Position numbers and translations under genes: made by a program. Positions 7,241 to 23,141 of a stretch of 64,000 nucleotides of DNA are shown piece after piece. The first letter of the stretch is position 1. The number at the start of each line of letters is the position of its first letter. Location of the stretch: assembly GCA_964402565.1 (NCBI GenBank), contig CAYOCJ010000002.1:661-64660 (forward strand). The letters run 5' to 3'. Source of the DNA: an uncultured Gammaproteobacteria bacterium (GTDB lineage: Bacteria > Patescibacteriota > Patescibacteriia > UBA1558 > 2-01-FULL-52-15). Below the pieces are notes generated by a model, which ran no database searches, was not told the DNA's origin, and was given only the letters and a program-made list of their open reading frames with translations.

Positions 7241-8632
7241 ATGGATTCCAAATATATCCTAATTCCTGTCGCCATCGGGGGCCTCATCCTCGCGGTACTT
7301 GTATACTTTACGGTCGTCCAAATCACCAACAGCGGGAAAGCGAAAAACTATCCTCCGGTCGTCCTCCAGTATTGGGGCGTCAATGAAACACCCGAAGACA
7401 TCTCGCTCCTCACGAAAGCATATACAGCTCGCCATCCGAAGATCAGCATCAACTACCGAACATTCCGTGAGGATGAGTATAAGCAGAAATTGCTCGAGGC
7501 ATGGGCCTTGGGTCAGGGGCCGGATATGTTCATGATCCCTTCTACGAAGATCCGCGAATTCATGAAATTCATCACGCCGATGCCGGCGACCATGAACTCT
7601 CCGGTGCAATACCAAAAAGGTACCATCAAAAAAGAGACCGTCGATGAAGTTCGCGCCTACCCTGGGCTCACGCCAAGTGATATCAAAAATACCTTCCTCG
7701 ATGTTGTCTCGAATGACGTGGTCATTGACAACAAGATATGGGGACTTCCCTATAGCGTCGACACACTCTCGGTCTACTATAATCGTGAGATGCTGAAAAA
7801 CGCGAATATCCCACTTCCCGCCAAGAGCTGGGAAGAGTTGATCGCGCAAGCGCCCGCCATAACGAAGCTGGATTCCAATGACACTATTGTGCAGTCAGCT
7901 ATCGCGATGGGAACGACGAATAATATACCAACCGCCCTTGAGATCATCATCAACCTCATGATGCAGATAGGCGTGCATATCAGTGACGCTTCCGGTCCGC
8001 TCTTCCATACCAATCCAGACAGCCTGAAAGCTATTGATTTTTTCCTGACCTTTGCCCAAAAAGGTCTTTCAAATTACTCCTGGAACAAGGATCTCCCTGA
8101 TGCTTTTGATCAATTTACCTCAGGGAAATTGGCTTACTTCATCGGGTATCCTTACCACGCGAATCTCATTAAACAAGCTAATCCGCAGCTCGACTTCGAT
8201 GTCATACCGATGTTCCAGACAGCAGGGGCCGAAAATCCGCCAAGTTATGCGTCTTACTGGGTTACCGTGGTGACTAAACCTCGCGCCGGGGAATCTACCC
8301 AGAAATCCGAGCTTGCCTGGCAATATTTGCTTGAAAGCACGGCGAAAGATAATGTGAATACGTTCCTTACCAACCCAACCCATCCACGCACGACCGCGCT
8401 CCGAGCATTGGTCGATACCCAAAAATCCGATCTCTTCCTCGGCCCATTCGCTCAGAGTTTACTGAATAGCCAAAGCTGGTACCAAGGGTATAATTATGAT
8501 CTCGCGAAAAAATACTTCCTCGATATGATAAATAACCTCAGCACTACGACCCCTATGGGAGCTGCCGGGCCGCAACAATTCCTCAGTGCTGGCGCTGATC
8601 TCATACGACAAACCTATTCACCGACCGAATGA
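7241..8632 (+). CDS. Membrane-anchored extracellular solute-binding protein (ABC substrate-binding family 1-like)
   Basis: 463 aa. N-terminal TM/signal anchor followed by a periplasmic-binding-protein-like domain. Its stop overlaps the start of the next gene (ATGA). Confidence 0.45.
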   Translation: MDSKYILIPVAIGGLILAVLVYFTVVQITNSGKAKNYPPVVLQYWGVNETPEDISLLTKAYTARHPKISINYRTFREDEYKQKLLEAWALGQGPDMFMIPSTKIREFMKFITPMPATMNSPVQYQKGTIKKETVDEVRAYPGLTPSDIKNTFLDVVSNDVVIDNKIWGLPYSVDTLSVYYNREMLKNANIPLPAKSWEELIAQAPAITKLDSNDTIVQSAIAMGTTNNIPTALEIIINLMMQIGVHISDASGPLFHTNPDSLKAIDFFLTFAQKGLSNYSWNKDLPDAFDQFTSGKLAYFIGYPYHANLIKQANPQLDFDVIPMFQTAGAENPPSYASYWVTVVTKPRAGESTQKSELAWQYLLESTAKDNVNTFLTNPTHPRTTALRALVDTQKSDLFLGPFAQSLLNSQSWYQGYNYDLAKKYFLDMINNLSTTTPMGAAGPQQFLSAGADLIRQTYSPTE

Positions 8633-9321
8633 AATCATCGACTCGCCTCATGCTACTCTGTTGTATCGTCGTGAGCTTCGCGCTCAGCGCCGCATTGACC
8701 GCAGCGCAAGCTCAAACCAACCCCAATGCCATCCTTCGTGGAGAAGGAACGGCCGCAGGGATCGGCGCGGATGCGAATAACCCGGTCACGCTCGCTGACT
8801 GTACGAATACCGGCAACTGCAGCATCGAACATATACTGCTTCTCGCGAACAGCATCATACGCTGGGCAGTGGCGATCAGCGGATCGGTTGCTCTCCTCAT
8901 GTATGTCATCGGGGGCGTTTGGATGATCTTCTCACAGGGAAACTCGAGCCGGATCGAACACGGCAAAGATATTATCGTCGGCACCAGCATCTCGCTCATC
9001 TTCATTCTGGGAGGATGGCTCATTATTCAATTCGCTCTGCAGAGCGTGGGAGCGAAGAGTCAATTCCTCTTGAAACCGAACAACTGTGGTACGAGCGGTG
9101 AGTGCCCTTATGGACAAGTGTGCTCGAAGAATAAATGTGTCGAGCGCTGTGTCACTGACAAAGCCGAGAAAGATCCTGATCATCCATGGCAGTGTCAGGA
9201 TATGAACCAATGCGGCATAGCATCAGCGAATGACTGCTCAGCGCATTCCGGAAATTGCGCTCTCAATCTCTGCATCACACAACCAGCGAACATCGTCTGC
9301 TGCTGGAATCCGAATTTATAG
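8629..9321 (+). CDS. T4SS-pilin/TrbC-VirB2-like two-helix protein with Cys-rich C-terminal extension (paralog 1)
   Basis: Signal peptide, then helix-VIGGVWMIFSQGNSSRIEHGKD-helix, then a ~95-aa tail with 16 Cys. Confidence 0.5.
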   Translation: MKSSTRLMLLCCIVVSFALSAALTAAQAQTNPNAILRGEGTAAGIGADANNPVTLADCTNTGNCSIEHILLLANSIIRWAVAISGSVALLMYVIGGVWMIFSQGNSSRIEHGKDIIVGTSISLIFILGGWLIIQFALQSVGAKSQFLLKPNNCGTSGECPYGQVCSKNKCVERCVTDKAEKDPDHPWQCQDMNQCGIASANDCSAHSGNCALNLCITQPANIVCCWNPNL

Positions 9322-9353
9322 CATTTTTCCAAAAAAACAAGTACCATACATCT

Positions 9354-9797
9354 ATGCAATACAAAATAAAATCACGGACCATACTGTTCGGCATAGTGTT
9401 TGTGGCAATACTATCTCTGTCGTTGCTCTTCAGCGCTCAGAGTGTCCGAGCGCAAGGTTGCTATCCAAGTGATTTTGTCGGACCACTACCACCAGGCGCT
9501 GTACGTTGCGCTGCCACTGGTGGCGGAACTGGCATCCCCCTACAGAACCCTATCAACGCAACCAGCGTTCCTGAGCTGGTGAACTCAATAGTCAAAGCAA
9601 TCCTCGGTATGGTCGGTGCTCTCGCACTCTTCATGTTCGTCTATGGCGGTATGCTGTGGATGACTTCCGCTGGAAATGCTCAGCGGATCGAGAAAGGTAA
9701 AGAAACGTTGATCTGGGCGACCATAGGTCTGGTCATCATCTTCGCGAGCTATGCAATATTGAGCTTTATTTTCACCGCGCTCAGTGGGAAAAGCTAA
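9354..9797 (+). CDS. T4SS-pilin/TrbC-VirB2-like small membrane protein (paralog 2)
   Basis: Signal peptide; FVYGGMLWMTSAGNAQRIEKGKE lies between two hydrophobic helices. Start chosen at MQYKIKS rather than the upstream in-frame Met, which overlaps paralog 1. Confidence 0.5.
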   Translation: MQYKIKSRTILFGIVFVAILSLSLLFSAQSVRAQGCYPSDFVGPLPPGAVRCAATGGGTGIPLQNPINATSVPELVNSIVKAILGMVGALALFMFVYGGMLWMTSAGNAQRIEKGKETLIWATIGLVIIFASYAILSFIFTALSGKS

Positions 9798-9798
9798 C

Positions 9799-9826
9799 TT
9801 GCAAAATAAGCGTTTTGTGGTATAAT
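9799..9826 (+). promoter_or_regulatory. Sigma-70-type promoter with extended -10 (TTGCAA-16-TGgTATAAT)
   Basis: Read directly from the sequence. It is 57 bp upstream of the paralog-3 ATG. A GGGGGTG Shine-Dalgarno lies 6 nt before the ATG at 9884. Confidence 0.6.
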
Positions 9827-9883
9827 TGTCATAGTTCTTTCTGGCGTTTACCATCTTAAAGTAACATGAAAGGGGGTGAATAC

Positions 9884-10243
9884 ATGAAAAAACTACTCAC
9901 AAAGGCATATCGCGTGGCTTATCTAGCTCCTCTGGCCCTCGGTGCAACAGCCCACGCACAAGGAGTTTCCATTGACTTTCCAAGTTCATTCGCTGGTTTC
10001 AGTTCGCAAGACCTGAAGACCACGATCCAGAACATCATTCGGATCATCGTTGGTTTCCTTGGCATCATTACCATCTTGATTATTCTCGCTGGTGGCTTCA
10101 AATGGATGACCTCAGGCGGTAGCGAAGATAAGATCGGAGAAGCAAAGAAACTTATCAGCGCTGGCGTTGTCGGTCTCGTTGTTGTCCTCGCTGCTTACGC
10201 AATCGCAAGCTTCGTTGTCAACAGTCTGCAGAAAGCTGTCTAG
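9884..10243 (+). CDS. T4SS-pilin/TrbC-VirB2-like small membrane protein (paralog 3)
   Basis: MKKLLTK... signal peptide ...AGGFKWMTSGGSEDKIGEAKK... second helix. Start moved to the Met that has the Shine-Dalgarno. Confidence 0.55.
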   Translation: MKKLLTKAYRVAYLAPLALGATAHAQGVSIDFPSSFAGFSSQDLKTTIQNIIRIIVGFLGIITILIILAGGFKWMTSGGSEDKIGEAKKLISAGVVGLVVVLAAYAIASFVVNSLQKAV

Positions 10244-10264
10244 AAGCCTCAAGATACACAGAGC

Positions 10265-10300
10265 ACCAACCGCTGCGGTATTCCGCAGCGGTTGGTTTTT
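10265..10300 (+). terminator. Rho-independent terminator
   Basis: accaaccgctgcgg-tattc-ccgcagcggttggt followed by TTTTT. Confidence 0.7.
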
Positions 10301-10376
10301 ATATATTAGTGTTATGTCAGACCTAGAGACAACCATCTAGAGATACGCTTATACACTATCTCTATAATGATCCAAG

Positions 10377-10404
10377 TTGCAAAATAAGCGTTTTGTGGTA
10401 TAAT
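10377..10404 (+). promoter_or_regulatory. Duplicate copy of the extended -10 promoter
   Basis: Identical TTGCAA-16-TGgTATAAT, 578 bp downstream of the first copy. Confidence 0.6.
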
Positions 10405-10461
10405 TGTCATAGTTCTTTCTGGCGTTTACCATCTTAAAGTAACATGAAAGGGGGTGAATAC

Positions 10462-10821
10462 ATGAAAAAACTACTCACAAAGGCATATCGCGTGGCTTAT
10501 CTAGCTCCTCTGGCCCTCGGTGCAACAGCCCACGCACAAGGAGTTTCCATTGACTTTCCAAGTTCATTCGCTGGTTTCAGTTCGCAAGACCTGAAGACCA
10601 CGATCCAGAACATCATTCGGATCATCGTTGGTTTCCTTGGCATCATTACCATCTTGATTATTCTCGCTGGTGGCTTCAAATGGATGACCTCAGGCGGTAG
10701 CGAAGATAAGATCGGAGAAGCAAAGAAACTTATCAGCGCTGGCGTTGTCGGTCTCGTTGTTGTCCTCGCTGCTTACGCAATCGCAAGCTTCGTTGTCAAC
10801 TCATTACAGCAGGCCGTCTAA
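10462..10821 (+). CDS. T4SS-pilin/TrbC-VirB2-like small membrane protein (paralog 4, duplicate of paralog 3)
   Basis: Protein identical to paralog 3 except the C-terminal ...SLQQAV versus ...SLQKAV. Confidence 0.55.
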   Translation: MKKLLTKAYRVAYLAPLALGATAHAQGVSIDFPSSFAGFSSQDLKTTIQNIIRIIVGFLGIITILIILAGGFKWMTSGGSEDKIGEAKKLISAGVVGLVVVLAAYAIASFVVNSLQQAV

Positions 10822-10893
10822 TCTTTCTTACGACTTACAGTCTAAGCTATCCCTCCTCTTCTATGGGGAGGGGAAGTATATACTCTAAGATCC

Positions 10894-11301
10894 ATGCGAA
10901 AAATAATTACGCGTTCTATTCCCAGCACACTCAGTTTCTTATTTTTTTTTATTGTGGGGTCAAAAGCCCTCGCAGATGATCCGTTTGGACTCAAGGGAGC
11001 TGCGAGCGGCACCGGCGTTTCGACAGCAGAGCTAACGGGTCAGGGCTCTATCATTTCGGTCGTCATTTTCAATTTACTAGGTATAGTCGGCGTGATCTTC
11101 CTAATACTCATGATCTGGGGAGGGACCATGTGGATGACCTCAGGCGGTAATGAGAAGCGCGTCGGCACCGCGAAGAGCATACTCACGACCGCGGTCATAG
11201 GGCTGGTCATAGTGCTCATGGCCTATAGCATTACTTACTTCATCGTACAGAATCTAACAGCGGTACAAGGACCAGCAAGCGCTGGATCTGGCAGCCCTTA
11301 A
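10894..11301 (+). CDS. T4SS-pilin/TrbC-VirB2-like small membrane protein (paralog 5)
   Basis: IWGGTMWMTSGGNEKRVGTAKS lies between two hydrophobic helices. Gly/Ser/Ala tail. Confidence 0.5.
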   Translation: MRKIITRSIPSTLSFLFFFIVGSKALADDPFGLKGAASGTGVSTAELTGQGSIISVVIFNLLGIVGVIFLILMIWGGTMWMTSGGNEKRVGTAKSILTTAVIGLVIVLMAYSITYFIVQNLTAVQGPASAGSGSP

Positions 11302-11312
11302 CACAACCACCC

Positions 11313-11714
11313 ATGAAAAAAATATTTCAATATGTCTGGCTTCTTCTTCTCGGCTTACCAACACTCACACTTGCAGCAGTGCCACCAACGCTGCAAAATC
11401 TAGATCTCGTCGGCAAAGGAAGTGGCTACCAGCAAAGTGACATTAAGATGACCATCGTTGGTATCATACAAGTACTGCTTGGTTTTATTGGTATTGTCTT
11501 TTTCATACTCATCCTCTGGGGAGGTTTTCAATGGATGACCTCGGGGGGTAATGAGAAAAAAATAGAAGACGCCAAAAAACGCCTTACGAGCGCTACTATC
11601 GGTCTCGTTCTGGTGCTTATGTCATACGCCATAGCAAGATCTATCAACTTGTGGCTCGCAGCCGCAGTCGGTAATGGCGCTACTTCCAACGCAGCGGGCA
11701 GCGGCAGCCCTTAA
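11313..11714 (+). CDS. T4SS-pilin/TrbC-VirB2-like small membrane protein (paralog 6)
   Basis: Signal peptide; LWGGFQWMTSGGNEKKIEDAKK between helices. The tail ...NAAGSGSP matches paralog 5. Confidence 0.5.
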   Translation: MKKIFQYVWLLLLGLPTLTLAAVPPTLQNLDLVGKGSGYQQSDIKMTIVGIIQVLLGFIGIVFFILILWGGFQWMTSGGNEKKIEDAKKRLTSATIGLVLVLMSYAIARSINLWLAAAVGNGATSNAAGSGSP

Positions 11715-11792: not shown

Positions 11793-12440
11793 CTAGCTGA
11801 TGTCCCTACAATACGGGACGTTATCGTGTTGCTCCGGAAAGTAGCCGAAGACGAACGCGAAGTCAACGACCCGATTGCCGGGGCACACATGGTCTCGGCC
11901 GTACCAGTCGATGTCTTGCGATCCGGCATACTCGATCGTCATTCCGTGAGGCCCCGCCTTGTGCGCGATGAACTGGAAACTTCCGCCGGTCGTATACAGC
12001 TTGATCCAAGGACCAGGCGAACGCCTGCGAAGGGTCACGTCTTCGACGGCGCCGACAGGGAGCCAGCACGGATCGTTCGATGCTGGCTGTTCGATACGGT
12101 TCTCTGAGCCGTAACAGACCGAAACCATTGAGGTCAAGTAGGTGATCTCGAAGGGGAAGTAGTTGTCTACCACCCCAATCTGCTCCACCGTACCGTTCTC
12201 GCCGAGCTCCTTGAGCACCGGCTGTGGCCGCGGTTGCCCAGGGATCAACGAACTCGGCGACTGGGCCATGTAATGGACGCTCGGGCCTTCGCCGGCCGGG
12301 GGCAGCTGAACCTTGGAAGGCAACCACCGAGTGACCACGCTTCCATCGGGTTGCCGACGGGTCACGCAGCCGAAGCTGCCGAGGAGGAGGATGAAAACCA
12401 TCATGACCAGAGGGAAAAGAGACAGTTTTCTGGACCGCAC
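11793..12440 (-). CDS. Secreted hypothetical protein in a GC-rich patch
   Basis: 215 aa. N-terminal signal peptide (LSLFPLVMMVFILLLGSF). No recognised domain. Local G+C is clearly above the flanks. Confidence 0.45.
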   Translation of the reverse strand: MRSRKLSLFPLVMMVFILLLGSFGCVTRRQPDGSVVTRWLPSKVQLPPAGEGPSVHYMAQSPSSLIPGQPRPQPVLKELGENGTVEQIGVVDNYFPFEITYLTSMVSVCYGSENRIEQPASNDPCWLPVGAVEDVTLRRRSPGPWIKLYTTGGSFQFIAHKAGPHGMTIEYAGSQDIDWYGRDHVCPGNRVVDFAFVFGYFPEQHDNVPYCRDIS

Positions 12441-12611: not shown

Positions 12612-14513
12612 ATGCTGGAGTTCAAACATACCAAAAAAATAGAACCACTATGGCTACTATGGTCAGCCATACTGTGCTATACGATCTTGTTCAGCATACT
12701 AGTCCTGTGGAAATACGCTCACTTCTACTATGACAATCTGGACCTGGCTATTTTCAATAATGTGTTCTGGAACACCTTGCATGGGCACTGGTTCCAGGCG
12801 AGCATACATCCGCCAAGCTACCTGGGTGACCACTTTTCGCCCTCCTTGTTTTTGCTCATGCCGTTCTATGCACTAGCGCCCACTCCTCAGACACTCCTCA
12901 TCCTGCAAACAGTAGCGCTTGGATTGTCAGCGCAACCCATCTATTTGATCAGTGAGTATATTGTTGGCAAGGAACGGAAATGGATGCCGCTGTTCATCAG
13001 CATGCTCTGGCTGGTGAATCCTCTGGTACATAATATGAATTTCTTTGAGTTCGAGCTTATGTCCTTTGCTGTGCTGGGGCTACTCTGGACGATCTGGGCC
13101 TATCTCAAAGAGAAACCAACCCTCTTCATCATTGCTTCTCTCTTCACTCTCGGCATGCGCGAAGACTTCGTCTGTATCTTTTTTGTATTCAGCATACTGG
13201 CCCTGCTGGATAAACGATCACTATTCTGGAAGCTCTATCCAATCCTTTCTTCGGCGGCATGGGGCATTCTTGCCTTCTGGACGATCAGTCTCTATGCGCC
13301 ACAGAATTCGTATAAATTTTTACGCTACTATGACTGGCTCGGGGGCACTACTCTCTGGTCCATCATCGCGAGTTTCGCCCTGCATCCGATCCAAGTACTC
13401 GCGCATCTCACCACCTGGTATAACCTGGAATTCGTGCTTGGGTTATTGTTCCCGTTCTTCTTCTTTGTCTCATTCCGGAATCGATACTCCCTGCTACTCA
13501 TTCCTCCTGCGGCGCAAATACTGCTGGCAGGTTTCGGAGGAAGCGGACTCATACTCGGCACCTACTATGCCGGTTACCTTGTTGCCATACTGTTCCTCTT
13601 ATTCGCGCTGCAGGTACGAGATTTCGACTTCACAAAACTTCCTGGATGGCTGCCGGTAGAACTCCGCTCACGACGCGTACTCTCTGCGATCATCGCTTGT
13701 GCCGCACTCTATGCTGCCGCGACCTATGGATCGATCTCGACCGCTCTTGCTTGGTGGCAGAAGCCGCATGAGCTAGTTGCTAAAGAGCATATGCTTGCTG
13801 CACTGCCTAGCGATGCTGCAGTCGCTACGACCTACTCCCTGCTACCGACCGTTTCTAGTCGACAGTATGTGTACTTATTCCCTTATGCCGCGATCGGTAA
13901 AAATCAATTCGCATTGAGTGAGTATGCGCTGCCGGAAAACACCGAGTATCTGCTTATTGATTGGGATGAAATGGTATTAGCGCAGATGCATTTCAGTCAA
14001 AACGCCGCTTTCAGTCCGTATGCAGATACGGTACCCAAAAATCTTCGAACTATACTATCTCAATTTTCTATCATTAGAGCAGAAGGTCCTATCTATGTAT
14101 TACAACGAGCTACTGATGCCGGCACAGTACAGCAGCTTGCCGCACTACGGCATACTTCTCAAACCGCGGACGCTGCAGCGACTATCACGCAAGTATCGCC
14201 AGATGCTGATCATATCGCCGTAACGATCGCTCTGCCGCAAAAGACAAACACCCAGAAATACTACTACCTTGAAGTGTCTGACGCTAGCGAAACATTCCGC
14301 CTACCGCTCGGGTACGATCTGTTTGGAATTGGCGAGCTCGACGGAGCGTCTACCGTACACATGCCTGTATTCATTGGTCCGGCCACGAAAAATATTATGC
14401 TGCGGCTCTATGCCTGGAGCAAAGGATCGATTGAGTTGAGCGGGATCAAGAGCATCCATCCGACGAGCGATGCCACAGAAATCAGTAGTTACAGTTACAA
14501 TACAACGCGATAG
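12612..14513 (+). CDS. Polytopic membrane protein (DUF2079-like / GT-C-like)
   Basis: 633 aa. N-terminal pattern YDNLDLAIFNNVFWNTLHGHWFQASIHPPSYLGDHFSP recalled as DUF2079-like. About 12 TM helices, then a soluble C-terminus. Confidence 0.4.
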   Translation: MLEFKHTKKIEPLWLLWSAILCYTILFSILVLWKYAHFYYDNLDLAIFNNVFWNTLHGHWFQASIHPPSYLGDHFSPSLFLLMPFYALAPTPQTLLILQTVALGLSAQPIYLISEYIVGKERKWMPLFISMLWLVNPLVHNMNFFEFELMSFAVLGLLWTIWAYLKEKPTLFIIASLFTLGMREDFVCIFFVFSILALLDKRSLFWKLYPILSSAAWGILAFWTISLYAPQNSYKFLRYYDWLGGTTLWSIIASFALHPIQVLAHLTTWYNLEFVLGLLFPFFFFVSFRNRYSLLLIPPAAQILLAGFGGSGLILGTYYAGYLVAILFLLFALQVRDFDFTKLPGWLPVELRSRRVLSAIIACAALYAAATYGSISTALAWWQKPHELVAKEHMLAALPSDAAVATTYSLLPTVSSRQYVYLFPYAAIGKNQFALSEYALPENTEYLLIDWDEMVLAQMHFSQNAAFSPYADTVPKNLRTILSQFSIIRAEGPIYVLQRATDAGTVQQLAALRHTSQTADAAATITQVSPDADHIAVTIALPQKTNTQKYYYLEVSDASETFRLPLGYDLFGIGELDGASTVHMPVFIGPATKNIMLRLYAWSKGSIELSGIKSIHPTSDATEISSYSYNTTR

Positions 14514-16147
14514 ACCGTGAGCGGCCCTGCGTTCATAACTTTCTTCACGAAAGGCGCTGTCTCAAGCCACTGCACTTCATGCCCTAACCGAAGTGAGCTA
14601 ACGACGATATAAGATATCGTCTCTTGTTGTAAAAAGTTCTTGCGCAACTCAAGACTCGCCGAGGTTTCCGGCTCTGAAAAGAACCAATCCATCTGCTGCT
14701 GTTTCAGCGGCGCCTGCGGTGTCTGATGATCATGTCCGCGAAAGACGAGCCGATTCAATTCGCTGGTGAGCGTGAACGATGTTTTCATGTCTGAAGTCAG
14801 CAGGTGATCATTCACCGTCGTTGCACCTCGCAGAAAATCTATCACCTGCTTCTCATCTGGCGTGATATAGTAGTAGCCATACCCATACGCGCTCGGTTCA
14901 AAATAGAGATTGATAACAAAATACAGACCAAGAGAACTGCCGAGCGCCACAGCAAGGATAAGCACGTAGATTACCCGAAGCCATTGCCTGTGTATCGCGC
15001 GGAAAAGGTAGCTGCATCCAGCATAGGCCGTTATCGCCAAAACAATATGCCAGCCATTGATGAAGCGCCTATTCACATCGAGCGGAAGATATAAGAGCAG
15101 CGGTATGATAGCGCACCAAATCAAGATCATCGCCCACCATGGATCATGCTTCTTCTGTGTGCCCATCATGAACAATCCCACGAGCGCTAAGGGTAGGAGC
15201 AATCCATATCCCCAGAGGTAGTTCGTTATGAGCGGCGAATACACCAGGTTCTGCTCATACCATGATCGCAAGACCGGCTCACTGAAAAGCGCGTAGAAAT
15301 TATAGGCAATAGTTATGAGCGCGGCGCAACCCAATAACATGAAACGCTTCAAGCTCAACCATGAGCCAGAAGTATAGATATGCCACACCGTCCATGAGCC
15401 TAAGACGGCGAAGACAATAGGCATATCATAGGGATGCATAGTACCGAGCACCAGTATGATGGCAGCGTTCACGCTATCCCAGAGCCAATTAACCTTCTCT
15501 CGATACCTGACAAAGATGAACGCGCTCGCGACTAAGGCGACCTGCGAAAAACTGAACAAAGGCGCTTGAGCGAAATTCAATAAGGTATTCCCCTCAGTAA
15601 CATACAGATCAACCGGCGAAAAGAAAAATTTTATCTGACTCGACGCCTGTAGGAGCCACGGATGCGTGATCAGATAGAGCCAGCCAAACCCTCCGGAAAA
15701 ATAGACGAAAAGACCGGCGATGACCCGCTCGACTTCATGAACAAAGAGCTGCGCCAAAAATAAATATAGCAGCCAGCAAAAGATAAGCGTGAAAAGAACT
15801 CGGTAGATCTGGTAAGCCGCATTGTTCGTCAGGTTGAACCAAGCCCCAGTCTGCCCTATCACATACCATACTGGCGAGAGCATACGTCCATGCTGCGGAT
15901 CGGTCGTATGCACATTGCGCATGAACAGTATCCCCTCCCTTCCCTGCTGTATCATATTCTTATAGACCATCTTGTCAGCAGCAGTGTAGGGATTCGCGCC
16001 AGTATACGCATACCCTGCCGGCGTATGCACGGCAAAGTTCAACTGTCCCATACTTGTGAGCAGCACGAATGTTACTGACGCTACACCATACAACCAATGC
16101 TCCCGCGTTACTCGCCTCACATACTGATAGGCTGATCGAATATTCAT
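14495..16147 (-). CDS. Polytopic membrane protein, GT-C-like (paralog B)
   Basis: 550 aa. Shares with the next ORF the N-terminal Y-x-YTGA...AAD-K-x-VY...MIQQG-x-EG-x-LFM-x-NVHT-x-x-PQ and C-terminal GH-x-HQT...MDWFF-x-EP-x-TS. Confidence 0.45.
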   Translation of the reverse strand: MNIRSAYQYVRRVTREHWLYGVASVTFVLLTSMGQLNFAVHTPAGYAYTGANPYTAADKMVYKNMIQQGREGILFMRNVHTTDPQHGRMLSPVWYVIGQTGAWFNLTNNAAYQIYRVLFTLIFCWLLYLFLAQLFVHEVERVIAGLFVYFSGGFGWLYLITHPWLLQASSQIKFFFSPVDLYVTEGNTLLNFAQAPLFSFSQVALVASAFIFVRYREKVNWLWDSVNAAIILVLGTMHPYDMPIVFAVLGSWTVWHIYTSGSWLSLKRFMLLGCAALITIAYNFYALFSEPVLRSWYEQNLVYSPLITNYLWGYGLLLPLALVGLFMMGTQKKHDPWWAMILIWCAIIPLLLYLPLDVNRRFINGWHIVLAITAYAGCSYLFRAIHRQWLRVIYVLILAVALGSSLGLYFVINLYFEPSAYGYGYYYITPDEKQVIDFLRGATTVNDHLLTSDMKTSFTLTSELNRLVFRGHDHQTPQAPLKQQQMDWFFSEPETSASLELRKNFLQQETISYIVVSSLRLGHEVQWLETAPFVKKVMNAGPLTVYRVVL

Positions 16148-17766
16148 GAACGTACCTTAAAAATTCTGACAGCGACCGAATCATAGACGCGCTGTACTCC
16201 TGGCAGTGTATCCAGCCAATCATACGAGGCTGTCATACTAGGTTTATAGATTATAATGCTGGTGATCTTGTTGTGAATGAGAAAATCCCTACGATTCGTA
16301 AAGGCTACTGATGTCTGAGGTTCGGCAAAGAACCAATCCATCTCATTCTTCTTCAGCTCATACTGTACCGTCTGATGCGCGTGCCCGACGAAGAGCCTCG
16401 TCGGCGCATATGCAGCTGAGAGTATGCCAATAAAACTAGTGCTCGGCAAGAGCACATCCTGATAGGTCAGCTGGTTGTGCAGCTGCGTCAAGGCATCGGT
16501 TATATACGGATCGAGATAGTAGTTATACTTCTCACTCAAGGTGGGCTGATAGAACAGCTGCTCAGCGATCTGATACAGCACTCCTGAAGAAAGCAGCATA
16601 GCACAGAAAATACCAACCGCGGCGCGTAGAGCAAAGGGTTTTACTGCACGCAGCAAATGCGTAAGCCCATACCAGCTAAGGAGACCCAAGGGTATCAACA
16701 AGGTATTCGCGAAACGCCGATTGATGGATGTCGGCTCATAGATCAATAGCAGTATCGCGAGCGCCCAAAACAAGACTAAGCGCCAATATTGGTCGTCCAA
16801 GGCTCGGTTACGCACCAAGTACCAAACACCGAGCAGCGCGAGCGGTCCAGTCATACCAATACCCCATAGATAATTACTGATGGAAGGCGAAAAGGCGATA
16901 TTCTGAGATAGCCAGCCAGATAATGCGGGCTCTCGAATAAGGCTGATGCCGTGGTAGATGCATGCTAGTGCCGCGCCCGTCACGAGTGGCCAGAGGCGAA
17001 TAACAATACTCGCGACGTCTTGTTGGAACACTTCGCTCAGAGCTAGAGCGGTAGTAACAATGATAAGCAGCGGTAGATCATAGGGATGCATCGCACCGAA
17101 GAGGGCAACGATGCACATGAGCGCCACACTCGACTTGAACGACCTCCGTTCTCGTAAAAACAAGAGCCACACTGCAAGTATCAACAGGTGTGAGAGTATG
17201 AATAGCGGCGACTGCAGCGTATTCGTGAAGGCGCTGAACTCTGTCACATACAGATCTATCGGTGTTTGATTAAAATGCTGCAACCAATGCACAGAGCTGT
17301 CGGCAATCTCAGGGTGAGCTATGAAATACAACCAGCCAAGGCCTGAGCTGAAAAGGACCAGGGCGAAAGCTCCGATCTGATCCCCTGTGTGAGCGAACAG
17401 TTTTCGGATAAAGCTATAGAGCAGCAATAAAAAACCAACTGTCGCTATCCAACGATAGAGATGATAGGCGAGCGGTATCGGCATATCGAGAAGTCGCGAA
17501 GTCATGCCGATAAGATACCAGTGCGGCGAGAAGAGTAGGCCGAGCTGCGGTTCGGACGTGTGCACATTCTGCATGAAGAGTCTGCCTTCCGCTCCCTGCT
17601 GTATCATCGAATAGTATACGAACTTATCAGCGACCGCTTCCAGGCCGGCGCCAGTATACTGATGCCCTGGCGGCGTTTCAAGATACAAACGTACAAAAAC
17701 GATATTCGTCGCAAGCAGAAAAAGCACTCCAATGCCGATGAACCATCGTTGCTTTCGTGTCTCCAT
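16144..17766 (-). CDS. Polytopic membrane protein, GT-C-like (paralog A), 4-nt overlap with paralog B
   Basis: 540 aa. Same conserved blocks as 14495-16147. The pair is a tandem duplication. Confidence 0.45.
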   Translation of the reverse strand: METRKQRWFIGIGVLFLLATNIVFVRLYLETPPGHQYTGAGLEAVADKFVYYSMIQQGAEGRLFMQNVHTSEPQLGLLFSPHWYLIGMTSRLLDMPIPLAYHLYRWIATVGFLLLLYSFIRKLFAHTGDQIGAFALVLFSSGLGWLYFIAHPEIADSSVHWLQHFNQTPIDLYVTEFSAFTNTLQSPLFILSHLLILAVWLLFLRERRSFKSSVALMCIVALFGAMHPYDLPLLIIVTTALALSEVFQQDVASIVIRLWPLVTGAALACIYHGISLIREPALSGWLSQNIAFSPSISNYLWGIGMTGPLALLGVWYLVRNRALDDQYWRLVLFWALAILLLIYEPTSINRRFANTLLIPLGLLSWYGLTHLLRAVKPFALRAAVGIFCAMLLSSGVLYQIAEQLFYQPTLSEKYNYYLDPYITDALTQLHNQLTYQDVLLPSTSFIGILSAAYAPTRLFVGHAHQTVQYELKKNEMDWFFAEPQTSVAFTNRRDFLIHNKITSIIIYKPSMTASYDWLDTLPGVQRVYDSVAVRIFKVRS

Positions 17767-17814
17767 ACTGAAAGTATTCTATCACAGCTCTGCCATCATA
17801 GACTATCATTGACG

Positions 17815-19413
17815 CTAGAGCGCTTGTGCTGGTGTGTATCGATAGAGCCACACCTCATCATCCTCATACACGAGCCTGAAATAAATGTTCGAGGCTACTG
17901 TTTTCTGAAATGCAGCATGGTCTTTATCAACCAGTACATAGCGGGCGTGAAAATCCTGGTCTACTACTTGTACCAAATTATCAGTGCTGCCATTCGCGGT
18001 AAGATCAGCCCATTCCGCATAGAGCTTCGGGCTATAGTTATACATGAATGTCGGATCAAGCCCTACGAGATAATAGTTCCTCTGATTATAGTAGAAAAGC
18101 ATCGGCCAATCATCCCAGTCACTCTGCAGCACGATTGTTTCCGGCAACGTGTTCTGCGCCAACCAGTTGGATACCTTCTGATACTGATGCAATGGGATAC
18201 CTTGCGCAACCTCAGCGCGTACTTGTTCGATACGACCCCATAGTCCAGCTCGCGGCAGGGCGACGAGCATGGCTATGACAACTAAGGCAACGATAGTGAG
18301 ATTCTGCTTCATTCGGCGATGCATATGCCAGGATCGCCACAGGTGTTCGAAGATATGATACTGGAACACGTCGGCCCATGCGGAAGATGCCGCAATGATC
18401 ATCGAAGGCGCCGCAAGCTCTATGTAGCGACGCGACTTATACATGAACACCGAGAACAAGAGCGTGAGAGCGAACAGTACCCAGGTACGAAATGTAATAC
18501 GTCGCACCTCAAGTATGATCAAGGTACAGAGTAGCGCGCCAGCAATGGCCGTCAGTCCTAAGTTATTTACGAATTCATATGGCGAGAGACTGCTCCACTC
18601 ACCACCGACATTCACCACACTTCCTTGATTAACGATAGCTATCTGCCAAATTTGCTGCCAGTAGAACCGCACATTGTGCGGCCAATACGGATTCACTATC
18701 AGGCCGACCAAAGACCCCCCGACCGTAGCGAGCACTGGCTTCAGCATCGGTATGCGGCGCAATCCCCGCAATCTACTCAAGAAGCGATGACGCCTGAAAC
18801 CTCGGGCTAAGAATACCCAATACCAAAAGGCGACGAAGCTATAGACAAAGGCAGCGACCCACGCCACGATCCATCCACCGTAGAGCCACACGAATATAGT
18901 ATTGAGCATGGCAAGCAGCCACCAACGCCGTTCGAATAAGCATATCAAAATACACAAGAGTAGTATCAGCGAAACACTGTTCGCTTTAACCAGACTCAGG
19001 CGAAAGAGGAACCCGCTTGAGAAGAATAGCGTCAGTGTCGCGAGCAGCGGACCGGCGAAACGTAACCTGCGCAAGGTCCCATAGAGTGTGACGAAAAAGG
19101 CGGCTCCGAACGCAGCGGTCGCGAGCTTTACCCCTAAGAGCGGATTGCCGAGTATGACGAACGGTATGAGCAATGCATGGTAGAGCAAATGATGATCCGT
19201 AAAATACATCCGCAGAGTCGTTGCCTGCATCCAGGGCATATCCTTCAAGATCACCCCGCGTGAAAGAAATTGCGCCATCGCGGCATGATAGAAGCCGTCT
19301 GGATCGCCCATCACCTGATTGTATTGAATATATACTGCTATCGCGAAAAATCCGACGAATAAAAAAAGGTAGTCGAGCCTCCTCGCCCGTATCGCTCGCC
19401 AGAGTTCACCCAT
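17815..19413 (-). CDS. Polytopic membrane protein, GT-C-like
   Basis: 532 aa. DPDGFYHAAMAQ in the first loop region. About 12 TM helices and a C-terminal soluble domain. Confidence 0.4.
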   Translation of the reverse strand: MGELWRAIRARRLDYLFLFVGFFAIAVYIQYNQVMGDPDGFYHAAMAQFLSRGVILKDMPWMQATTLRMYFTDHHLLYHALLIPFVILGNPLLGVKLATAAFGAAFFVTLYGTLRRLRFAGPLLATLTLFFSSGFLFRLSLVKANSVSLILLLCILICLFERRWWLLAMLNTIFVWLYGGWIVAWVAAFVYSFVAFWYWVFLARGFRRHRFLSRLRGLRRIPMLKPVLATVGGSLVGLIVNPYWPHNVRFYWQQIWQIAIVNQGSVVNVGGEWSSLSPYEFVNNLGLTAIAGALLCTLIILEVRRITFRTWVLFALTLLFSVFMYKSRRYIELAAPSMIIAASSAWADVFQYHIFEHLWRSWHMHRRMKQNLTIVALVVIAMLVALPRAGLWGRIEQVRAEVAQGIPLHQYQKVSNWLAQNTLPETIVLQSDWDDWPMLFYYNQRNYYLVGLDPTFMYNYSPKLYAEWADLTANGSTDNLVQVVDQDFHARYVLVDKDHAAFQKTVASNIYFRLVYEDDEVWLYRYTPAQAL

Positions 19414-19416: not shown

Positions 19417-20448
19417 TTATGCTAAACGCTTCTTGAAATAATCAACCCACGGAATTGCAGCTGGATTTTTTTTCGCGAGAATACCAGAGTAAAAGGTAAA
19501 AAATCCACTGAATGACAACATCTTCAAACACTGCGCCACACGAGATCCATTGAATGAAATAGTTTTAGTGTTGAAACCTTGCTTCTCTATTACCTGACGA
19601 GTAATAGCAAGTCGCTTCCGCGTACGAGGCGTATATTCCTTTGACTCAAGAAACAGGAATGTCCAGTGTTTTCGGGCTTCTCTCAAACTGCCTAAACCTT
19701 CAAGTAGATGATGATTCAATTCTGACAAGAAAAAGGCGGGCGCGAATGCTTTGGCAGTTTCATTTAGCTGATTACTTATAACATGAGCATTGCCAACTAG
19801 GTGCTCTGCGGCAATAATCACAAATGACTGTCCGAGGAGTTCTTCCGCGAAACGAAATGGTACTGCGGTATCGATCGTCATGTGCTTGGTCGCGGCGATC
19901 AGATCCGGCGCGCTCGCTGCTAACAAGCCTTCTTTCTTCAGCACCTCATACATTGCCGTCATAGTATACCCGGTACCGATGCGCGGCTGCTTGGAAGGAT
20001 TATTATCAGGATGAAAAGTAAAGTGCGGTATGCGGAATTTCTTTGCAGCGGTACTAAGCGCTCCACCTTCGGCGATCACAAAGGAAGGCAATTTTCGTTC
20101 ACGAGCTTCCGAAAGGCAAGAAATGATTTCCTCAGTAGTACCTGAATAGCTACATAATAGTACCAGGGTGTTTTTATCAGCAAAGTGAGGGAGCGAGTAT
20201 CCGTTCACAATGACGAAAGGAACTTTGAGATAATGTTTATAGAGTGATCGTAGCACATCCGCTCCTAAAGCCGAGCCACCCATAGCGCAGACAACGACTG
20301 CATTCCAGCGACGTTTTGGAAGACTCGTTTTTTTAGGAAAGTCGCGATGTGCCTGCAGTATCTGTTCTTTCAATAGCGCGACTGAAAGTCCCACTTGCGA
20401 TTTATCGAGGCGCCGAATAAGTAATTCAATGGATTGTTTTTTTTGCAT
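19417..20448 (-). CDS. Bifunctional phosphoglucose/phosphomannose isomerase (SIS-domain, archaeal-type PGI/PMI)
   Basis: 343 aa. VVCAMGGSALGADV...LLCSYSGTTEE is an SIS fold of the PGI/PMI family. Confidence 0.7.
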   Translation of the reverse strand: MQKKQSIELLIRRLDKSQVGLSVALLKEQILQAHRDFPKKTSLPKRRWNAVVVCAMGGSALGADVLRSLYKHYLKVPFVIVNGYSLPHFADKNTLVLLCSYSGTTEEIISCLSEARERKLPSFVIAEGGALSTAAKKFRIPHFTFHPDNNPSKQPRIGTGYTMTAMYEVLKKEGLLAASAPDLIAATKHMTIDTAVPFRFAEELLGQSFVIIAAEHLVGNAHVISNQLNETAKAFAPAFFLSELNHHLLEGLGSLREARKHWTFLFLESKEYTPRTRKRLAITRQVIEKQGFNTKTISFNGSRVAQCLKMLSFSGFFTFYSGILAKKNPAAIPWVDYFKKRLA

Positions 20449-21988: not shown

Positions 21989-22037
21989 ATCGGTGATGCC
22001 GTTCCACCAAATGTACGGCATCGAAATCGCTTTTCGC

Positions 22038-22065
22038 CAAAAGTCCCTTCGGGGATTTTTGGTTT
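22038..22065 (+). terminator. Terminator-like hairpin with UUCG tetraloop
   Basis: caaaagtccc-ttcg-gggatttttgg, followed by TTT. Confidence 0.4.
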
Positions 22066-22384
22066 ATCCAACAGTAGCATATTCCGAGCCGAGACCCAGG
22101 AAGCATCCACTGAAGACGAACCATCCCGTGAGAACTGTTAGTCACTTTTTCTTAAGCTGTCGACTGCTGCGGACGGCATACTCATTCACTCAGACTATTC
22201 CACCAAAGAATATTCTTTTTTTCATATCAACGAGACACTTCGACGGCTTATTTTTCTCTCAAGGTACTTACTGACCTAAGTATCCTAACAAAGACTCGCT
22301 CACAGTTCAATATTTTTCTGCAAACAAAAACGCCCACCGTGCACACTACGCACGGCAGGCAACTGTTTTCGTTCAAGGCAGGCC

Positions 22385-23080: not shown

Positions 23081-23141
23081 TGCCTCCTCCGCAGCCTCCT
23101 ATTCTGCGGTTTGTTATGAGTGAATGAGCGGCCGCGCTCGC

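What the first reader, a model, noticed from the sequence alone, without database searches (positions are those of the whole stretch)
12612..19413. Four consecutive large polytopic GT-C-like membrane proteins, including a tandem paralog pair with 4-nt overlap
12612-14513 (+) is followed on the minus strand by 14495-16147, 16144-17766 and 17815-19413. The middle two share long conserved blocks at the N-terminus (AAD-K-x-VY...MIQQG-x-EG-x-LFM-x-NVHT) and C-terminus (GH-x-HQT...MDWFF-x-EP). The next gene is a bifunctional PGI/PMI (mannose-6-P supply). Elsewhere in the window are a GT39/ArnT-type enzyme (45954-47666), a partial GT-C (1-1089), a 753-aa membrane protein and a DPM1-like GT2 next to dnaN. 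Together this looks like an expanded lipid-linked-sugar-dependent protein or glycan mannosylation system with unknown targets. The secreted and pilin-like proteins of this window are candidates.
Basis: partly seen in the sequence, partly recalled or inferred. Interest (0 to 1): 0.55.

Follow-up and report, generated by a model that had tools for sequence, protein, structure and literature searches.

The report
Cluster of unannotated membrane glycosyltransferases in Patescibacteria
Four adjacent large membrane proteins in this ultra-small (Komeilibacteria-like) bacterium are very probably lipid-sugar-dependent glycosyltransferases, three of them from families no database names, in a gene block kept across many Patescibacteria; which surface molecule they glycosylate is unknown.

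Summary
Four polytopic ORFs sit at the stated coordinates. The middle two are full-length paralogs (35% identity, E 5e-107) joined by an ATGA overlap.

P1 (12612-14513) is Pfam DUF2079. P2, P3 and P4 match no Pfam, NCBIfam or PDB sequence. AlphaFold models of P3 and P4 (pLDDT 92) match only GT-C glycosyltransferases: AftA, STT3/PglB/AglB, DPY19, ArnT. Each has a basic N-terminus, TM1 and a long first outer loop with conserved Asp. Profile comparisons link the P2/P3 family, the P4 family and DUF2079.

The P2/P3 family is large (8,728 50%-identity clusters). The P4 family occurs in at least 573 species, nearly all Patescibacteria.

Related genomes keep the order PGI > P4 > [GT2] > [P2/P3] > < DUF2079 < VirB2-like pilin array < SBP < GalU. 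One genome fuses the DPMS-like GT2 to a P2/P3-family protein.

Best reading: several polyprenyl-phosphate-hexose-dependent GT-C enzymes build or decorate a surface glycoconjugate.

Mannose is not established. The neighbouring nucleotidyltransferase is GalU-like, which points to UDP-glucose.

The acceptor is unresolved: pilin-like proteins or a wall or lipid glycopolymer. Synteny here also includes housekeeping genes, so adjacency is weak evidence.

The parts
12612..14513 (+). P1, 633 aa, DUF2079-family GT-C-like membrane protein with a ~250-aa C-terminal extracytoplasmic tail
   Evidence: Pfam PF09852 E 1.6e-47, 163 bits against a 28.2 cut-off. Basic N-terminus, TM1, 63-aa first loop with YYDNLD; D44, D73 and H74 conserved in 40-41 of 41 relatives. 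DUF2079 profile vs the P4-family profile: hhalign 83.7%, E 8e-6 over about 390 residues.
14495..16147 (-). P2, 550 aa, downstream member of the tandem paralog pair (unannotated GT-C family 'P2/P3')
   Evidence: 35% identical to P3, E 5e-107. No Pfam or NCBIfam match. Keeps all invariant columns of alignment A1. Has its own orthologs in two other Komeilibacteria loci.
16144..17766 (-). P3, 540 aa, upstream member of the pair; ATGA overlap with P2
   Evidence: AF2 model pLDDT 91.6, pTM 0.90. All 18 Foldseek PDB matches with E up to 0.01 are GT-C: AftA 1.3e-8, STT3, DPY19, PglB, AglB, ArnT, AftB. D47 in the first loop is nearly invariant; R105, G142, G144, P187, F189, W334, P345 and H462 are invariant. 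The family has 8,728 50%-identity clusters at E<=1e-3.
17815..19413 (-). P4, 532 aa, Patescibacteria-wide unannotated GT-C family
   Evidence: AF2 model pLDDT 92.3, pTM 0.92. The 17 best Foldseek matches are STT3/PglB/AglB and DPY19 (E 2e-9 and weaker, TM 0.52-0.65), followed by ALG9/12, AftD, AftA, AftB, PimE, Pmt, Emb. Invariant D37-P38-D39, H43, D73, H79, R138, E272-W273, R329, E332, W433-D434, D453. hhalign to the P2/P3 family: 97%, E 8e-11. At least 573 species genomes carry a relative.
19417..20448 (-). PGI/PMI-type sugar-phosphate isomerase, last gene of the P2-P3-P4 transcription direction
   Evidence: bact-PGI_C E 3.5e-20 plus SIS. Best NCBIfam matches are bifunctional PGI/PMI models, below cut-off. 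Found next to P4 in 51 of 80 related loci.
6377..7228 (+). GalU-like UTP-glucose-1-phosphate uridylyltransferase, outer end of the conserved block
   Evidence: TIGR01099 GalU E 4.5e-81, 272 bits against a 327 cut-off. Found at the same end of the block in 19 of 58 loci with enough flank.
7241..8632 (+). Extracellular solute-binding protein (SBP_bac_1/8) preceding the pilin array
   Evidence: Conserved in this position in 35 of 58 loci.
8629..11714 (+). Array of six VirB2-like 'T4SS_pilin' genes (8629-9321, 9255-9797, 9866-10243, 10444-10821, 10894-11301, 11313-11714); candidate acceptors only
   Evidence: PF18895 matches. A pilin array lies downstream of P4 in 44 of 58 loci. The labelled gene next to it is DUF2079 in 33 loci and a P4 copy in 8.
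11793..12440 (-). 215-aa secreted or lipoprotein-like protein between the pilin array and P1, no family
   Evidence: No Pfam or NCBIfam match. Signal peptide ending in Cys (sequence). A gene of similar size and position occurs in L001 and L005, and a 228-aa lipoprotein-like cluster in 7 loci.
61992..62702 (+). 236-aa GT2, dolichol/polyprenyl-phosphate hexose synthase-like; probable maker of the lipid-linked donor
   Evidence: Glycos_transf_2 E 1.2e-25. Best solved relative is P. furiosus Dol-P-Man synthase 5mlz, E 8.4e-27 over residues 7-230, followed by ArnC. NCBIfam matches AglJ and PpgS. Relatives lie between P4 and the P2/P3 genes in 31 of 80 loci.
45954..47666 (-). 570-aa PMT_2/PMT-type GT-C elsewhere in the window
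   Evidence: PMT_2 E 1e-30, PMT E 1e-16. hhalign to the P2/P3 profile 76% (E 2e-5) and to the DUF2079 profile 68%.
2215..4476 (-). 753-aa polytopic protein with a PMT_2 domain
   Evidence: PMT_2 E 1.4e-11, 45 bits against a 26.1 cut-off. LIC_10190 family match E 1e-9, below cut-off.

Best explanation
P1-P4 are four catalytically competent GT-C(A)-fold glycosyltransferases from three families: DUF2079, an unnamed 'P2/P3' family and an unnamed 'P4' family. The likely pathway runs as follows. A cytoplasmic hexose-phosphate pool (PGI/PMI-type isomerase, GalU-like uridylyltransferase) yields an NDP-hexose. A DPMS/GtrB-like GT2 loads the hexose onto polyprenyl phosphate. The lipid-sugar reaches the outer leaflet by an unidentified flippase. 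Each GT-C then transfers one sugar to an extracytoplasmic acceptor, using the conserved Asp residues of the first outer loop. Several GT-Cs in a row, in numbers and types that vary between lineages, imply successive or alternative steps that build or decorate one lineage-variable cell-surface glycoconjugate. The P2/P3 pair is an old tandem duplication that is translationally coupled, so the two have different linkage or acceptor specificity or work together. Shown: gene structure, paralogy, fold, conserved motifs, locus conservation, the GT2 fusion. Inferred: donor type, single-sugar transfer, sequential action. Unknown: sugar identity and acceptor.
For: Fold: AF2 models reach pLDDT 91.6 and 92.3. 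Every significant PDB match is a GT-C enzyme. Transporter matches have probability 0.10 or less. Anatomy: a K/R-rich N-terminus, TM1, then a 45-79-aa first loop with conserved acidic residues in all four proteins. Family links: P2/P3 vs P4 97%, DUF2079 vs P4 83.7% with aligned D-H motifs, PMT_2 protein vs P2/P3 76%. Donor: the window GT2 resembles Dol-P-Man synthase (E 8e-27) and ArnC. GT2 genes sit between P4 and the P2/P3 genes in 31 of 80 loci. P0235 is a GT2::P2/P3-family fusion located between a P4-sized gene with no family match and DUF2079, and its GT2 domain best matches DPMS and ArnC. Other family members are fused to or flanked by YfhO GT-Cs. Locus: the order PGI-P4-[GT2]-[P2/P3]-DUF2079 recurs across Komeili-, Kerfeld-, Falkow-, Buchanan-, Nomura- and Parcubacteria. 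The GT-C inserts vary and include GT87-like genes in 30 loci, PTPS_related and PMT_2. P2 and P3 each have orthologs in other Komeilibacteria, and the family has duplicated independently elsewhere.
Against: There is no biochemical evidence. No flippase (GtrA, SMR or MATE) was found in the window. In this genome the GT2 lies about 42 kb from the cluster, next to dnaN, so its link rests on other genomes. The block also conserves YebC (60 loci) and RuvC (52 loci), so gene order is deeply inherited in this group and neighbourhood evidence is weak. The PGI/PMI-type isomerase is probably the organism's general glycolytic isomerase. P1 and P2 were not modelled.
Confidence: 0.6

Rival explanations
1. 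Acceptor hypothesis A: the GT-Cs O-glycosylate secreted or membrane proteins encoded alongside them. The main candidates are the VirB2-like 'T4SS_pilin' proteins, whose N-terminal segments and G/S/T/P-rich C-terminal tails face outward. The SBP or the lipoprotein are further candidates. TfpW with type IV pilins and PMT with lipoproteins are precedents.
For: A pilin array lies downstream of P4 in 44 of 58 loci with enough flank. The labelled gene next to the array is a GT-C in 42 of 44 cases (DUF2079 33, P4 copy 8, P2/P3 1). When DUF2079 is absent, a second P4 copy takes its place. 84 of 212 pilin ORFs have tails of 10 or more residues, and those tails are enriched in G, T, S, N and P. Two window pilins end in ...GPASAGSGSP and ...NGATSNAAGSGSP. 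The best fold matches of P4 are protein-modifying enzymes: STT3, PglB, DPY19.
Against: The same block conserves unrelated housekeeping genes. Many P4 loci have no pilins within 10 kb. P2/P3-family members outside the CPR sit with YfhO and no pilins. There is no glycoproteomic evidence. Fold similarity does not separate protein from glycan acceptors, since AftA is the top match for P3.
Confidence: 0.3
2. Acceptor hypothesis B: the GT-Cs assemble or decorate a non-protein envelope glycopolymer outside the membrane. This could be teichoic-acid-like, a lipoglycan or a wall polysaccharide. Precedents are mycobacterial LM/LAM/arabinan (GT87, Aft, Emb) and YfhO- or Gtr-type three-component decoration.
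For: The top PDB match for P3 is AftA. GT87-like GT-Cs occur in 30 related loci. P2/P3-family proteins are fused to or flanked by YfhO. The GT-C content varies between lineages in the manner of O-antigen or teichoic-acid modification loci. An ABC-2 exporter pair (TagGH/Wzm-Wzt type) is present at 27220-28774. Three-component systems are a documented general route (PMC11127046, PMC7389260).
Against: No polymer-backbone synthesis genes lie in or beside the cluster. The ABC-2 pair is 8 kb away and its linkage was not tested. No such polymer is known for these lineages.
Confidence: 0.35
3. P4 is a divergent oligosaccharyltransferase that transfers a pre-assembled glycan en bloc from polyprenyl-diphosphate to protein. 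The other GT-Cs would extend that lipid-linked glycan on the outer face, as ALG3/9/12/6/8/10 and STT3 do in the ER.
For: The ten best fold matches of P4 are all STT3 (E 2e-9 to 1.5e-7, TM 0.60-0.65). PglB and AglB follow within the top 17, together with DPY19. P4 has an invariant D-x-D in loop 1, an invariant Glu (E272) in a later outer loop, and an invariant W-D in 'SDWDxWP' just after the first strand of the C-terminal domain. The C-terminal domain of the related P2/P3 profile weakly matches the WWDYG-containing chain 3vu0 (E 0.079; hhalign 31%).
Against: There is no Pfam STT3 match at E<=1 and no PDB sequence match. The direct P4 profile vs 3vu0 comparison gives 1.7% and does not align W-D with WWDYG. 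DPY19, ALG9/12 and AftD score almost as well. No phosphoglycosyltransferase, Wzx or PglK genes lie in the locus. The locus GT2 is of the monophosphate-sugar synthase type.
Confidence: 0.12
4. The proteins are not enzymes. They would be transporters or structural membrane proteins that merely resemble GT-C.
For: P2-P4 match no curated family. One weak PDB sequence match is to a glycerol facilitator (E 0.075).
Against: That match is not significant. Foldseek transporter matches have probability 0.10 or less and TM about 0.1, against probability 1.00 for GT-C enzymes. Charged residues in the first loop are invariant across hundreds of relatives. A fusion to a GT2 exists.
Confidence: 0.03

Closest known systems
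Three-component extracytoplasmic glycosylation systems (GtrA/GtrB/Gtr*, CsbB/GtcA/YfhO, GT136 system; PMC11127046, PMC7389260)
   Same: A DPMS/GtrB-like GT2 is paired with GT-C enzymes acting outside the membrane. GT2 and GT-C are adjacent, and in one case fused, in homologous loci. YfhO is a neighbour or fusion partner of the P2/P3 family.
   Different: No flippase gene was found. There are four to seven GT-Cs instead of one. The GT-Cs belong to families not covered by Pfam or NCBIfam. The acceptor polymer is unknown. In this genome the GT2 is not in the cluster.
Oligosaccharyltransferases STT3/PglB/AglB (GT66)
   Same: They are the best structural matches of P4 and among the best of P3. They share the GT-C(A) membrane core and a small mixed alpha/beta C-terminal outer domain. 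P4 has a D-x-D in loop 1.
   Different: There is no sequence-level membership. No WWDYG motif is present. The C-terminal domain is much smaller (about 120-130 aa). No lipid-diphosphate-oligosaccharide assembly genes lie nearby.
Mycobacterial GT-C cascade (AftA/AftB/AftD, Emb, PimE/GT87)
   Same: AftA is the top match for P3. Several GT-Cs act in series from polyprenyl-monophosphate sugars. GT87-like genes occur in 30 homologous loci.
   Different: There is no sequence membership. The organisms are not Actinobacteria. Pentofuranose donor genes (PRPP-based) were not seen.
Pfam DUF2079 (PF09852)
   Same: P1 is a clear member (163 bits).
   Different: The family has no characterised member and no solved structure. 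What is new here is its profile link to the P4 family and its fixed position beside VirB2-like arrays.
PMT / ArnT-type enzymes (GT39/GT83, Pfam PMT, PMT_2)
   Same: The fold class is the same. The window's own PMT_2 protein links by profile to the P2/P3 and DUF2079 families.
   Different: P2-P4 give no PMT or PMT_2 match at E<=1. They lack the PMT MIR domain.
TfpW, the GT-C pilin arabinosyltransferase encoded next to pilA in Pseudomonas aeruginosa (from memory, not tested)
   Same: A GT-C gene lies directly beside pilin genes.
   Different: TfpW acts on type IV pilins, whereas the array here is VirB2-like. No homology was shown.

Membership tests
GT-C glycosyltransferase superfamily (fold level) | Polytopic membrane core structurally similar to solved GT-C enzymes | tested here: met
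   P3: all 18 PDB matches with E up to 0.01 are GT-C. P4: the top 36 are GT-C or the related PIG-U. Models have pLDDT of about 92. P2 is assigned by 35% identity to P3. P1 is assigned only by Pfam DUF2079 and hhalign to P4 at 83.7%.
GT-C glycosyltransferase superfamily (fold level) | Cytoplasmic N-terminus, TM1, then a long first extracytoplasmic loop carrying conserved acidic catalytic residue(s) | tested here: met
   All four have K/R-rich N-termini and first loops of 45-79 aa. Conserved residues: D47 in P3 and its counterpart in P2; D37, D39 and D73 in P4; D44 and D73 in P1. The 3D position in a pocket was not checked.
GT-C glycosyltransferase superfamily (fold level) | Uses a lipid-phosphate-linked sugar donor | not testable with these tools
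   Indirect evidence only: a DPMS-like GT2 in the window, GT2 genes in 31 of 80 loci, and a GT2 fusion.
Pfam DUF2079 (PF09852) | Score above the gathering cut-off | tested here: met
   P1 scores 163.1 bits against 28.2. P2-P4 give no match.
PMT / PMT_2 / GT87 / YfhO / STT3 (Pfam models for GT39, GT83, GT87, YfhO, GT66) | HMM match for P2, P3 or P4 | tested here: not met
   No Pfam family at E<=1 and no meaningful NCBIfam match. Seven more distant P2/P3-family members also gave no significant Pfam match.
Oligosaccharyltransferase (GT66) | WWDYG motif at the start of the C-terminal domain | tested here: not met
   P3 has no such motif. P4 has an invariant SDWDxWP, but the direct profile comparison with the WWDYG-containing chain 3vu0 is not significant and does not align the motifs.
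Oligosaccharyltransferase (GT66) | D-x-D in the first external loop | tested here: met
   P4 has D37-P38-D39, invariant in 47 sequences. This feature is also common to other GT-C families, so it does not discriminate.
Three-component glycosylation system | Polyprenyl-phosphate sugar synthase (GT2 of GtrB/DPMS type) | tested here: met
   The protein at 61992-62702 matches 5mlz at E 8.4e-27 and ArnC at about 1e-7. It is not adjacent in this window, but relatives are adjacent or fused in related loci.
Three-component glycosylation system | Dedicated small flippase (GtrA, GtcA, SMR or MATE) | tested here: not met
   The small multi-TM ORFs of the window are DUF1761 or have no significant match. 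No GtrA, SMR or MATE protein was found. Only this 64-kb window was searched.
Three-component glycosylation system | GT-C transferase acting on an extracytoplasmic acceptor | tested here: inconclusive
   The GT-C fold is met. Activity and acceptor were not tested.

The most novel reading that the evidence does not exclude
The block encodes an ER-lumen-like glycosylation pathway in Patescibacteria. A lipid-linked glycan would be extended on the outer face by DUF2079, P2/P3 and GT87-type GT-Cs using polyprenyl-P-hexose. The STT3-like P4 enzyme, a previously unrecognised bacterial branch related to oligosaccharyltransferases, would then transfer it to surface proteins such as the essential VirB2-like array proteins that CPR cells are thought to use at the host interface.
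Probability: 0.1. Interest if true: 0.85.

Novelty: new variant of a known kind. Interest (0 to 1): 0.5.

Why it matters
Patescibacteria are tiny, mostly episymbiotic bacteria, and their surface is what meets the host. Their glycosylation is essentially unexplored: the searched literature holds nothing on DUF2079, on GT-C enzymes in this group, or on oligosaccharyltransferases in Parcubacteria. Here a genome whose largest known contig is only about 513 kb has, in 64 kb, six recognisable GT-C proteins and possibly a seventh.

Two of the families are invisible to Pfam and NCBIfam. One of them has about 8,700 50%-identity clusters across bacteria. The other occurs in at least 573 species genomes, nearly all of them Patescibacteria.

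Naming these families, and recognising a conserved yet variable 'GT-C hotspot' beside the VirB2-like arrays, gives concrete genes and residues to test. It would improve annotation of thousands of 'hypothetical proteins'. It also offers a handle on surface variation and host recognition in the CPR.

Tried and rejected
**Family searches for P2-P4.** Pfam and NCBIfam returned nothing for P2-P4. The only hits were noise, PetL and TcpD at E around 0.1.

**PDB sequence searches.** Single-sequence and profile searches gave nothing significant.

**Transporter reading.** Rejected. The glycerol facilitator hit (E 0.075) is not significant, and Foldseek transporter hits have probability 0.10 or less.

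**Word-index homolog search.** It badly undercounts the P2/P3 family, giving 21-22 hits against 8,728 in the exhaustive search. The family is not rare.

**Mannose-specific reading.** Not adopted. The only support is a PGI/PMI-type isomerase below the NCBIfam cut-offs, while the conserved nucleotidyltransferase is GalU-like.

**WWDYG equivalence in P4.** The transitive, by-eye alignment looked attractive, but the direct comparison is not significant and places the motif elsewhere. I treat this as inconclusive.

**Flippase search.** None was found in the window.

**Partial ORF 1-1089.** There is no family match and no profile link. The GT-C call is left unverified.

**Neighbourhood as proof of pilin targeting.** Down-weighted after YebC and RuvC turned out to be conserved in the same block.

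**Names for family members.** Cluster look-up gave only 'hypothetical protein', one of them from Armatimonadota.

**Literature.** No hits for DUF2079, for GT-C with Patescibacteria, or for oligosaccharyltransferase with Parcubacteria.

Full report
**Observation**

P2 and P3 align over their whole length at 35% identity (E 5e-107). The P3 stop and P2 start share ATGA. P1 and P2 converge and overlap by 19 nt. The gene after P4 (19417-20448) has bact-PGI_C and SIS domains. Its best NCBIfam matches are bifunctional PGI/PMI models, all below cut-off.

The window looks like a Patescibacteria (CPR) genome. It holds an array of PF18895 'T4SS_pilin' genes, SSB, dnaA-dnaN and small housekeeping operons. 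The closest relatives of P3 and P4 that carry a name are Candidatus Komeilibacteria proteins.

**Family assignment**

P1 is a clear DUF2079 member (163 bits). P2, P3 and P4 match nothing in Pfam at E<=1 and nothing meaningful in NCBIfam. They have no PDB relative by sequence or by profile.

The word-index search found only 21 relatives of P3. The exhaustive profile search found 8,728 50%-identity clusters at E<=1e-3, of which 4,059 are at E<=1e-30. This is therefore a large family that is simply unannotated. The few members that carry a name are 'hypothetical protein', one of them from Armatimonadota.

P4 has 319 relatives in the protein search, all without Pfam domains. The named ones are Komeili-, Parcu-, Buchanan- and Peregrinibacteria or 'Patescibacteria group'. 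At least 573 species-representative genomes encode a P4 relative.

**Fold**

AlphaFold2 models built with family alignments are confident: P3 has pLDDT 91.6 and pTM 0.90, P4 has pLDDT 92.3 and pTM 0.92.

- For P3, all 18 PDB matches with E up to 0.01 are GT-C enzymes: AftA 1.3e-8, yeast and human STT3, DPY19, PglB, AglB, ArnT and AftB. Unrelated transporters follow at probability 0.10 or less.
- For P4, the 17 best matches are STT3, PglB or AglB, together with DPY19 (E 2e-9 and weaker, query TM 0.52-0.65). ALG12/ALG9, AftD, AftA, AftB, PimE, Pmt1/2 and Emb follow.

Both models show the GT-C(A) layout. TM1 is followed by a long outer loop with two short helices, then a helical bundle and a small alpha/beta C-terminal domain.

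**Conserved residues and topology**

All four proteins start with a K/R-rich segment followed by TM1 and a first loop of 45-79 residues.

- P2/P3 family: D47 in AADKxVY is nearly invariant. R105, G142, G144, P187, F189, W334, P345 and H462 are invariant across 22 sequences that fall to 21% identity.
- P4 family: D37-P38-D39, H43, D73, H79, R138, E272-W273, R329, E332, W433-D434 and D453 are invariant in 47 sequences.
- DUF2079 relatives taken from the fetched loci: D44, D73-H74, E146, R183-E184-D185 and K235 are conserved in 40-41 of 41.

Profile-profile comparison ties the families together. P2/P3 vs P4 gives 97% (E 8e-11) over about 400 columns. DUF2079 vs P4 gives 83.7% (E 8e-6) and aligns DUF2079 'SYLGDHF' with P4 'FTDHH'. 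The window's PMT_2 protein vs P2/P3 gives 76%.

**Donor side**

The 236-aa GT2 after dnaN (61992-62702) is most similar to Pyrococcus Dol-P-Man synthase (5mlz, E 8.4e-27 over the whole catalytic domain). ArnC follows in the PDB search, and AglJ and PpgS in NCBIfam. All of these are polyprenyl-phosphate glycosyltransferases.

The nucleotidyltransferase at 6377-7228 is GalU-like (E 4.5e-81). UDP-glucose is therefore at least as likely a precursor as GDP-mannose, and 'mannosylation' is not established.

No GtrA-, SMR- or MATE-type flippase was found in the window.

**Comparative context**

A Komeilibacteria contig with only about 40% protein identity has the same order: PGI, P4, two P2/P3 paralogs, convergent DUF2079, a small unknown gene, four pilin genes, SBP and NTP_transferase. 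A Parcubacteria genome keeps P4, convergent DUF2079, the pilins, SBP and NTP_transferase. Another contig has PGI, P4, a methyltransferase, GT87, GT2, three more large membrane proteins and a second GT2.

I labelled ORFs in 80 species-level loci using profiles of the window's proteins.

| Gene near P4 | Loci (of 80) |
|---|---|
| PGI | 51 |
| pilin genes | 46 |
| P2/P3 family | 42 |
| DUF2079 | 41 |
| SBP | 36 |
| GT2 | 31 |

The canonical order is PGI > P4 > [GT2 x0-3] > [P2/P3 x0-2] > < DUF2079 < pilins < SBP < GalU.

Among the 58 loci with at least 8 kb downstream of P4, 44 have a pilin array. The labelled gene next to the array is DUF2079 in 33 and a P4 copy in 8.

Further GT-C types occupy the same slot: GT87-like in 30 loci, plus PTPS_related and PMT_2. 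PAP2, Wzy_C, GH15 and methyltransferase genes also occur there. The slot behaves as a variable GT-C hotspot between conserved flanks.

One groundwater contig carries a single 790-aa protein (P0235) whose N-terminal GT2 is fused to a P2/P3-family domain. It lies between a 567-aa gene in the P4 position, which has no family match and was not itself compared with P4, and DUF2079. The GT2 half best matches DPMS and ArnC. This fusion is the strongest single argument that the GT2 product is the donor for this family.

Outside the CPR, family members are fused to YfhO (1,352 and 1,391 aa) or alternate with YfhO genes.

**The paralog pair**

In a neighbour-joining tree, P2 groups with the second copy and P3 with the first copy in two other Komeilibacteria loci. 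The duplication therefore predates those lineages, and gene order has been kept. Other lineages duplicated the family independently.

Both copies keep every invariant residue, so neither looks like a pseudo-enzyme. Different linkage or acceptor specificity, or a heterodimer as in Pmt1-Pmt2 or EmbA-EmbB, are both possible. Neither was tested.

**Mechanism and its limits**

The best-supported model runs as follows. A hexose phosphate is converted to an NDP-hexose. The DPMS-like GT2 makes polyprenyl-P-hexose. This is flipped to the outer leaflet. Several GT-Cs then each add a sugar to an extracytoplasmic acceptor, producing a lineage-variable surface glycoconjugate.

The acceptor is open. The pilin-array adjacency favours protein O-glycosylation, especially because a second P4 copy replaces DUF2079 beside the array. 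Many array proteins also have short tails rich in G, S, T, P and N. However, YebC (60 loci) and RuvC (52 loci) are conserved in the same block. Gene order here is deeply inherited, and adjacency alone is weak evidence.

The case for a non-protein glycopolymer is about as good. It rests on the AftA, GT87 and YfhO affinities, the variable GT-C content, and an ABC-2 exporter pair at 27220-28774.

**The OST-like reading**

The fold matches of P4, its D-x-D, an invariant Glu in a later loop, and 'SDWDxWP' after the first strand of the C-terminal domain all recall oligosaccharyltransferases. The P2/P3 profile weakly matches the WWDYG-containing chain 3vu0 (E 0.079).

Direct comparisons do not hold up. 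P2/P3 vs 3vu0 gives 31%. P4 vs 3vu0 gives 1.7%, with the motifs out of register. There is also no STT3 HMM match. I keep this as the most novel reading that the evidence does not exclude, at about 10%.

**Novelty and verdict**

The kind of system is known: GT-C enzymes fed by a GT2 polyprenyl-phosphate sugar synthase (PMC11127046, PMC7389260). What appears new is the following.

- Two GT-C families are absent from Pfam and NCBIfam.
- These families have a profile-level link to DUF2079.
- A conserved yet variable multi-GT-C block lies next to the VirB2-like arrays, which were described for CPR in bioRxiv 10.1101/2025.01.22.634366.

I found no literature on any of this. Its interpretation is right about fold and mechanism class, unproven about mannose, and only suggestive about targets.

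Noticed in passing
window 9796-10821: Recent tandem duplication of a pilin gene. The 125-aa ORFs at 9866-10243 and 10444-10821 differ by one residue (K122Q). At least 300 nt are 100% identical, with a 578-nt period that starts upstream of the start codon.
   Followed up: partly
window 8629-9321; L005 13669-14322, L012, L058, L059 and others: In many related genomes the first gene of the pilin array (215-245 aa) carries a long Cys-rich extracellular C-terminal domain. The other array members have short tails rich in G, S, T, P and N. This may be a tip or adhesin-like subunit.
   Followed up: partly
window 27220-28774 (-): ABC-2 membrane protein plus ABC ATPase pair, of the type used to export teichoic acids or O-antigens (TagGH/Wzm-Wzt-like). 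It may export a glycopolymer that the GT-Cs decorate. Linkage was not tested.
   Followed up: no
L005 17268-17605; L012 20370-21575: Wzy_C (O-antigen ligase / PglL-type) genes lie just beyond the GalU end of the conserved block in two Parcubacteria-type loci. The same family includes pilin O-oligosaccharyltransferases.
   Followed up: no
L007-L086 (30 loci), e.g. L048 11578-12885: A GT87-like GT-C of about 435 aa recurs between P4 and DUF2079 in related genomes but is absent from this window. PTPS_related, PAP2 and GH15 genes also appear there.
   Followed up: partly
window 62000-64000 and 22000-35000: G+C rises to 0.586 in the last 2 kb, where overlapping ORFs (62861-63520 +, 62879-63607 -) have no family match. 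It is 0.51-0.58 across 22-36 kb, against 0.43-0.51 in most of the rest of the window. Either the composition is heterogeneous or foreign segments are present.
   Followed up: no
window 59260-62702: dnaA and dnaN mark the replication-origin region, and the DPMS-like GT2 gene starts right at the dnaN stop. The CPR T4SS preprint notes origin-proximal placement as a possible way to raise expression.
   Followed up: no
L007-L086 upstream of PGI: YebC/TACO1 (60 loci) and RuvC (52 loci) lie upstream of PGI-P4 in most related genomes but not in this window, where an unknown 298-aa secreted protein and SSB follow PGI. A local rearrangement has occurred in this lineage.
   Followed up: partly
window 44703-45110 (-) and 45356-47666 (-): The PMT_2/PMT-type GT-C is followed by a class I methyltransferase gene. 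After a 245-nt gap comes a 135-aa three-TM protein with no family. Methyltransferase genes also accompany P4 in other loci (L005, L006).
   Followed up: no
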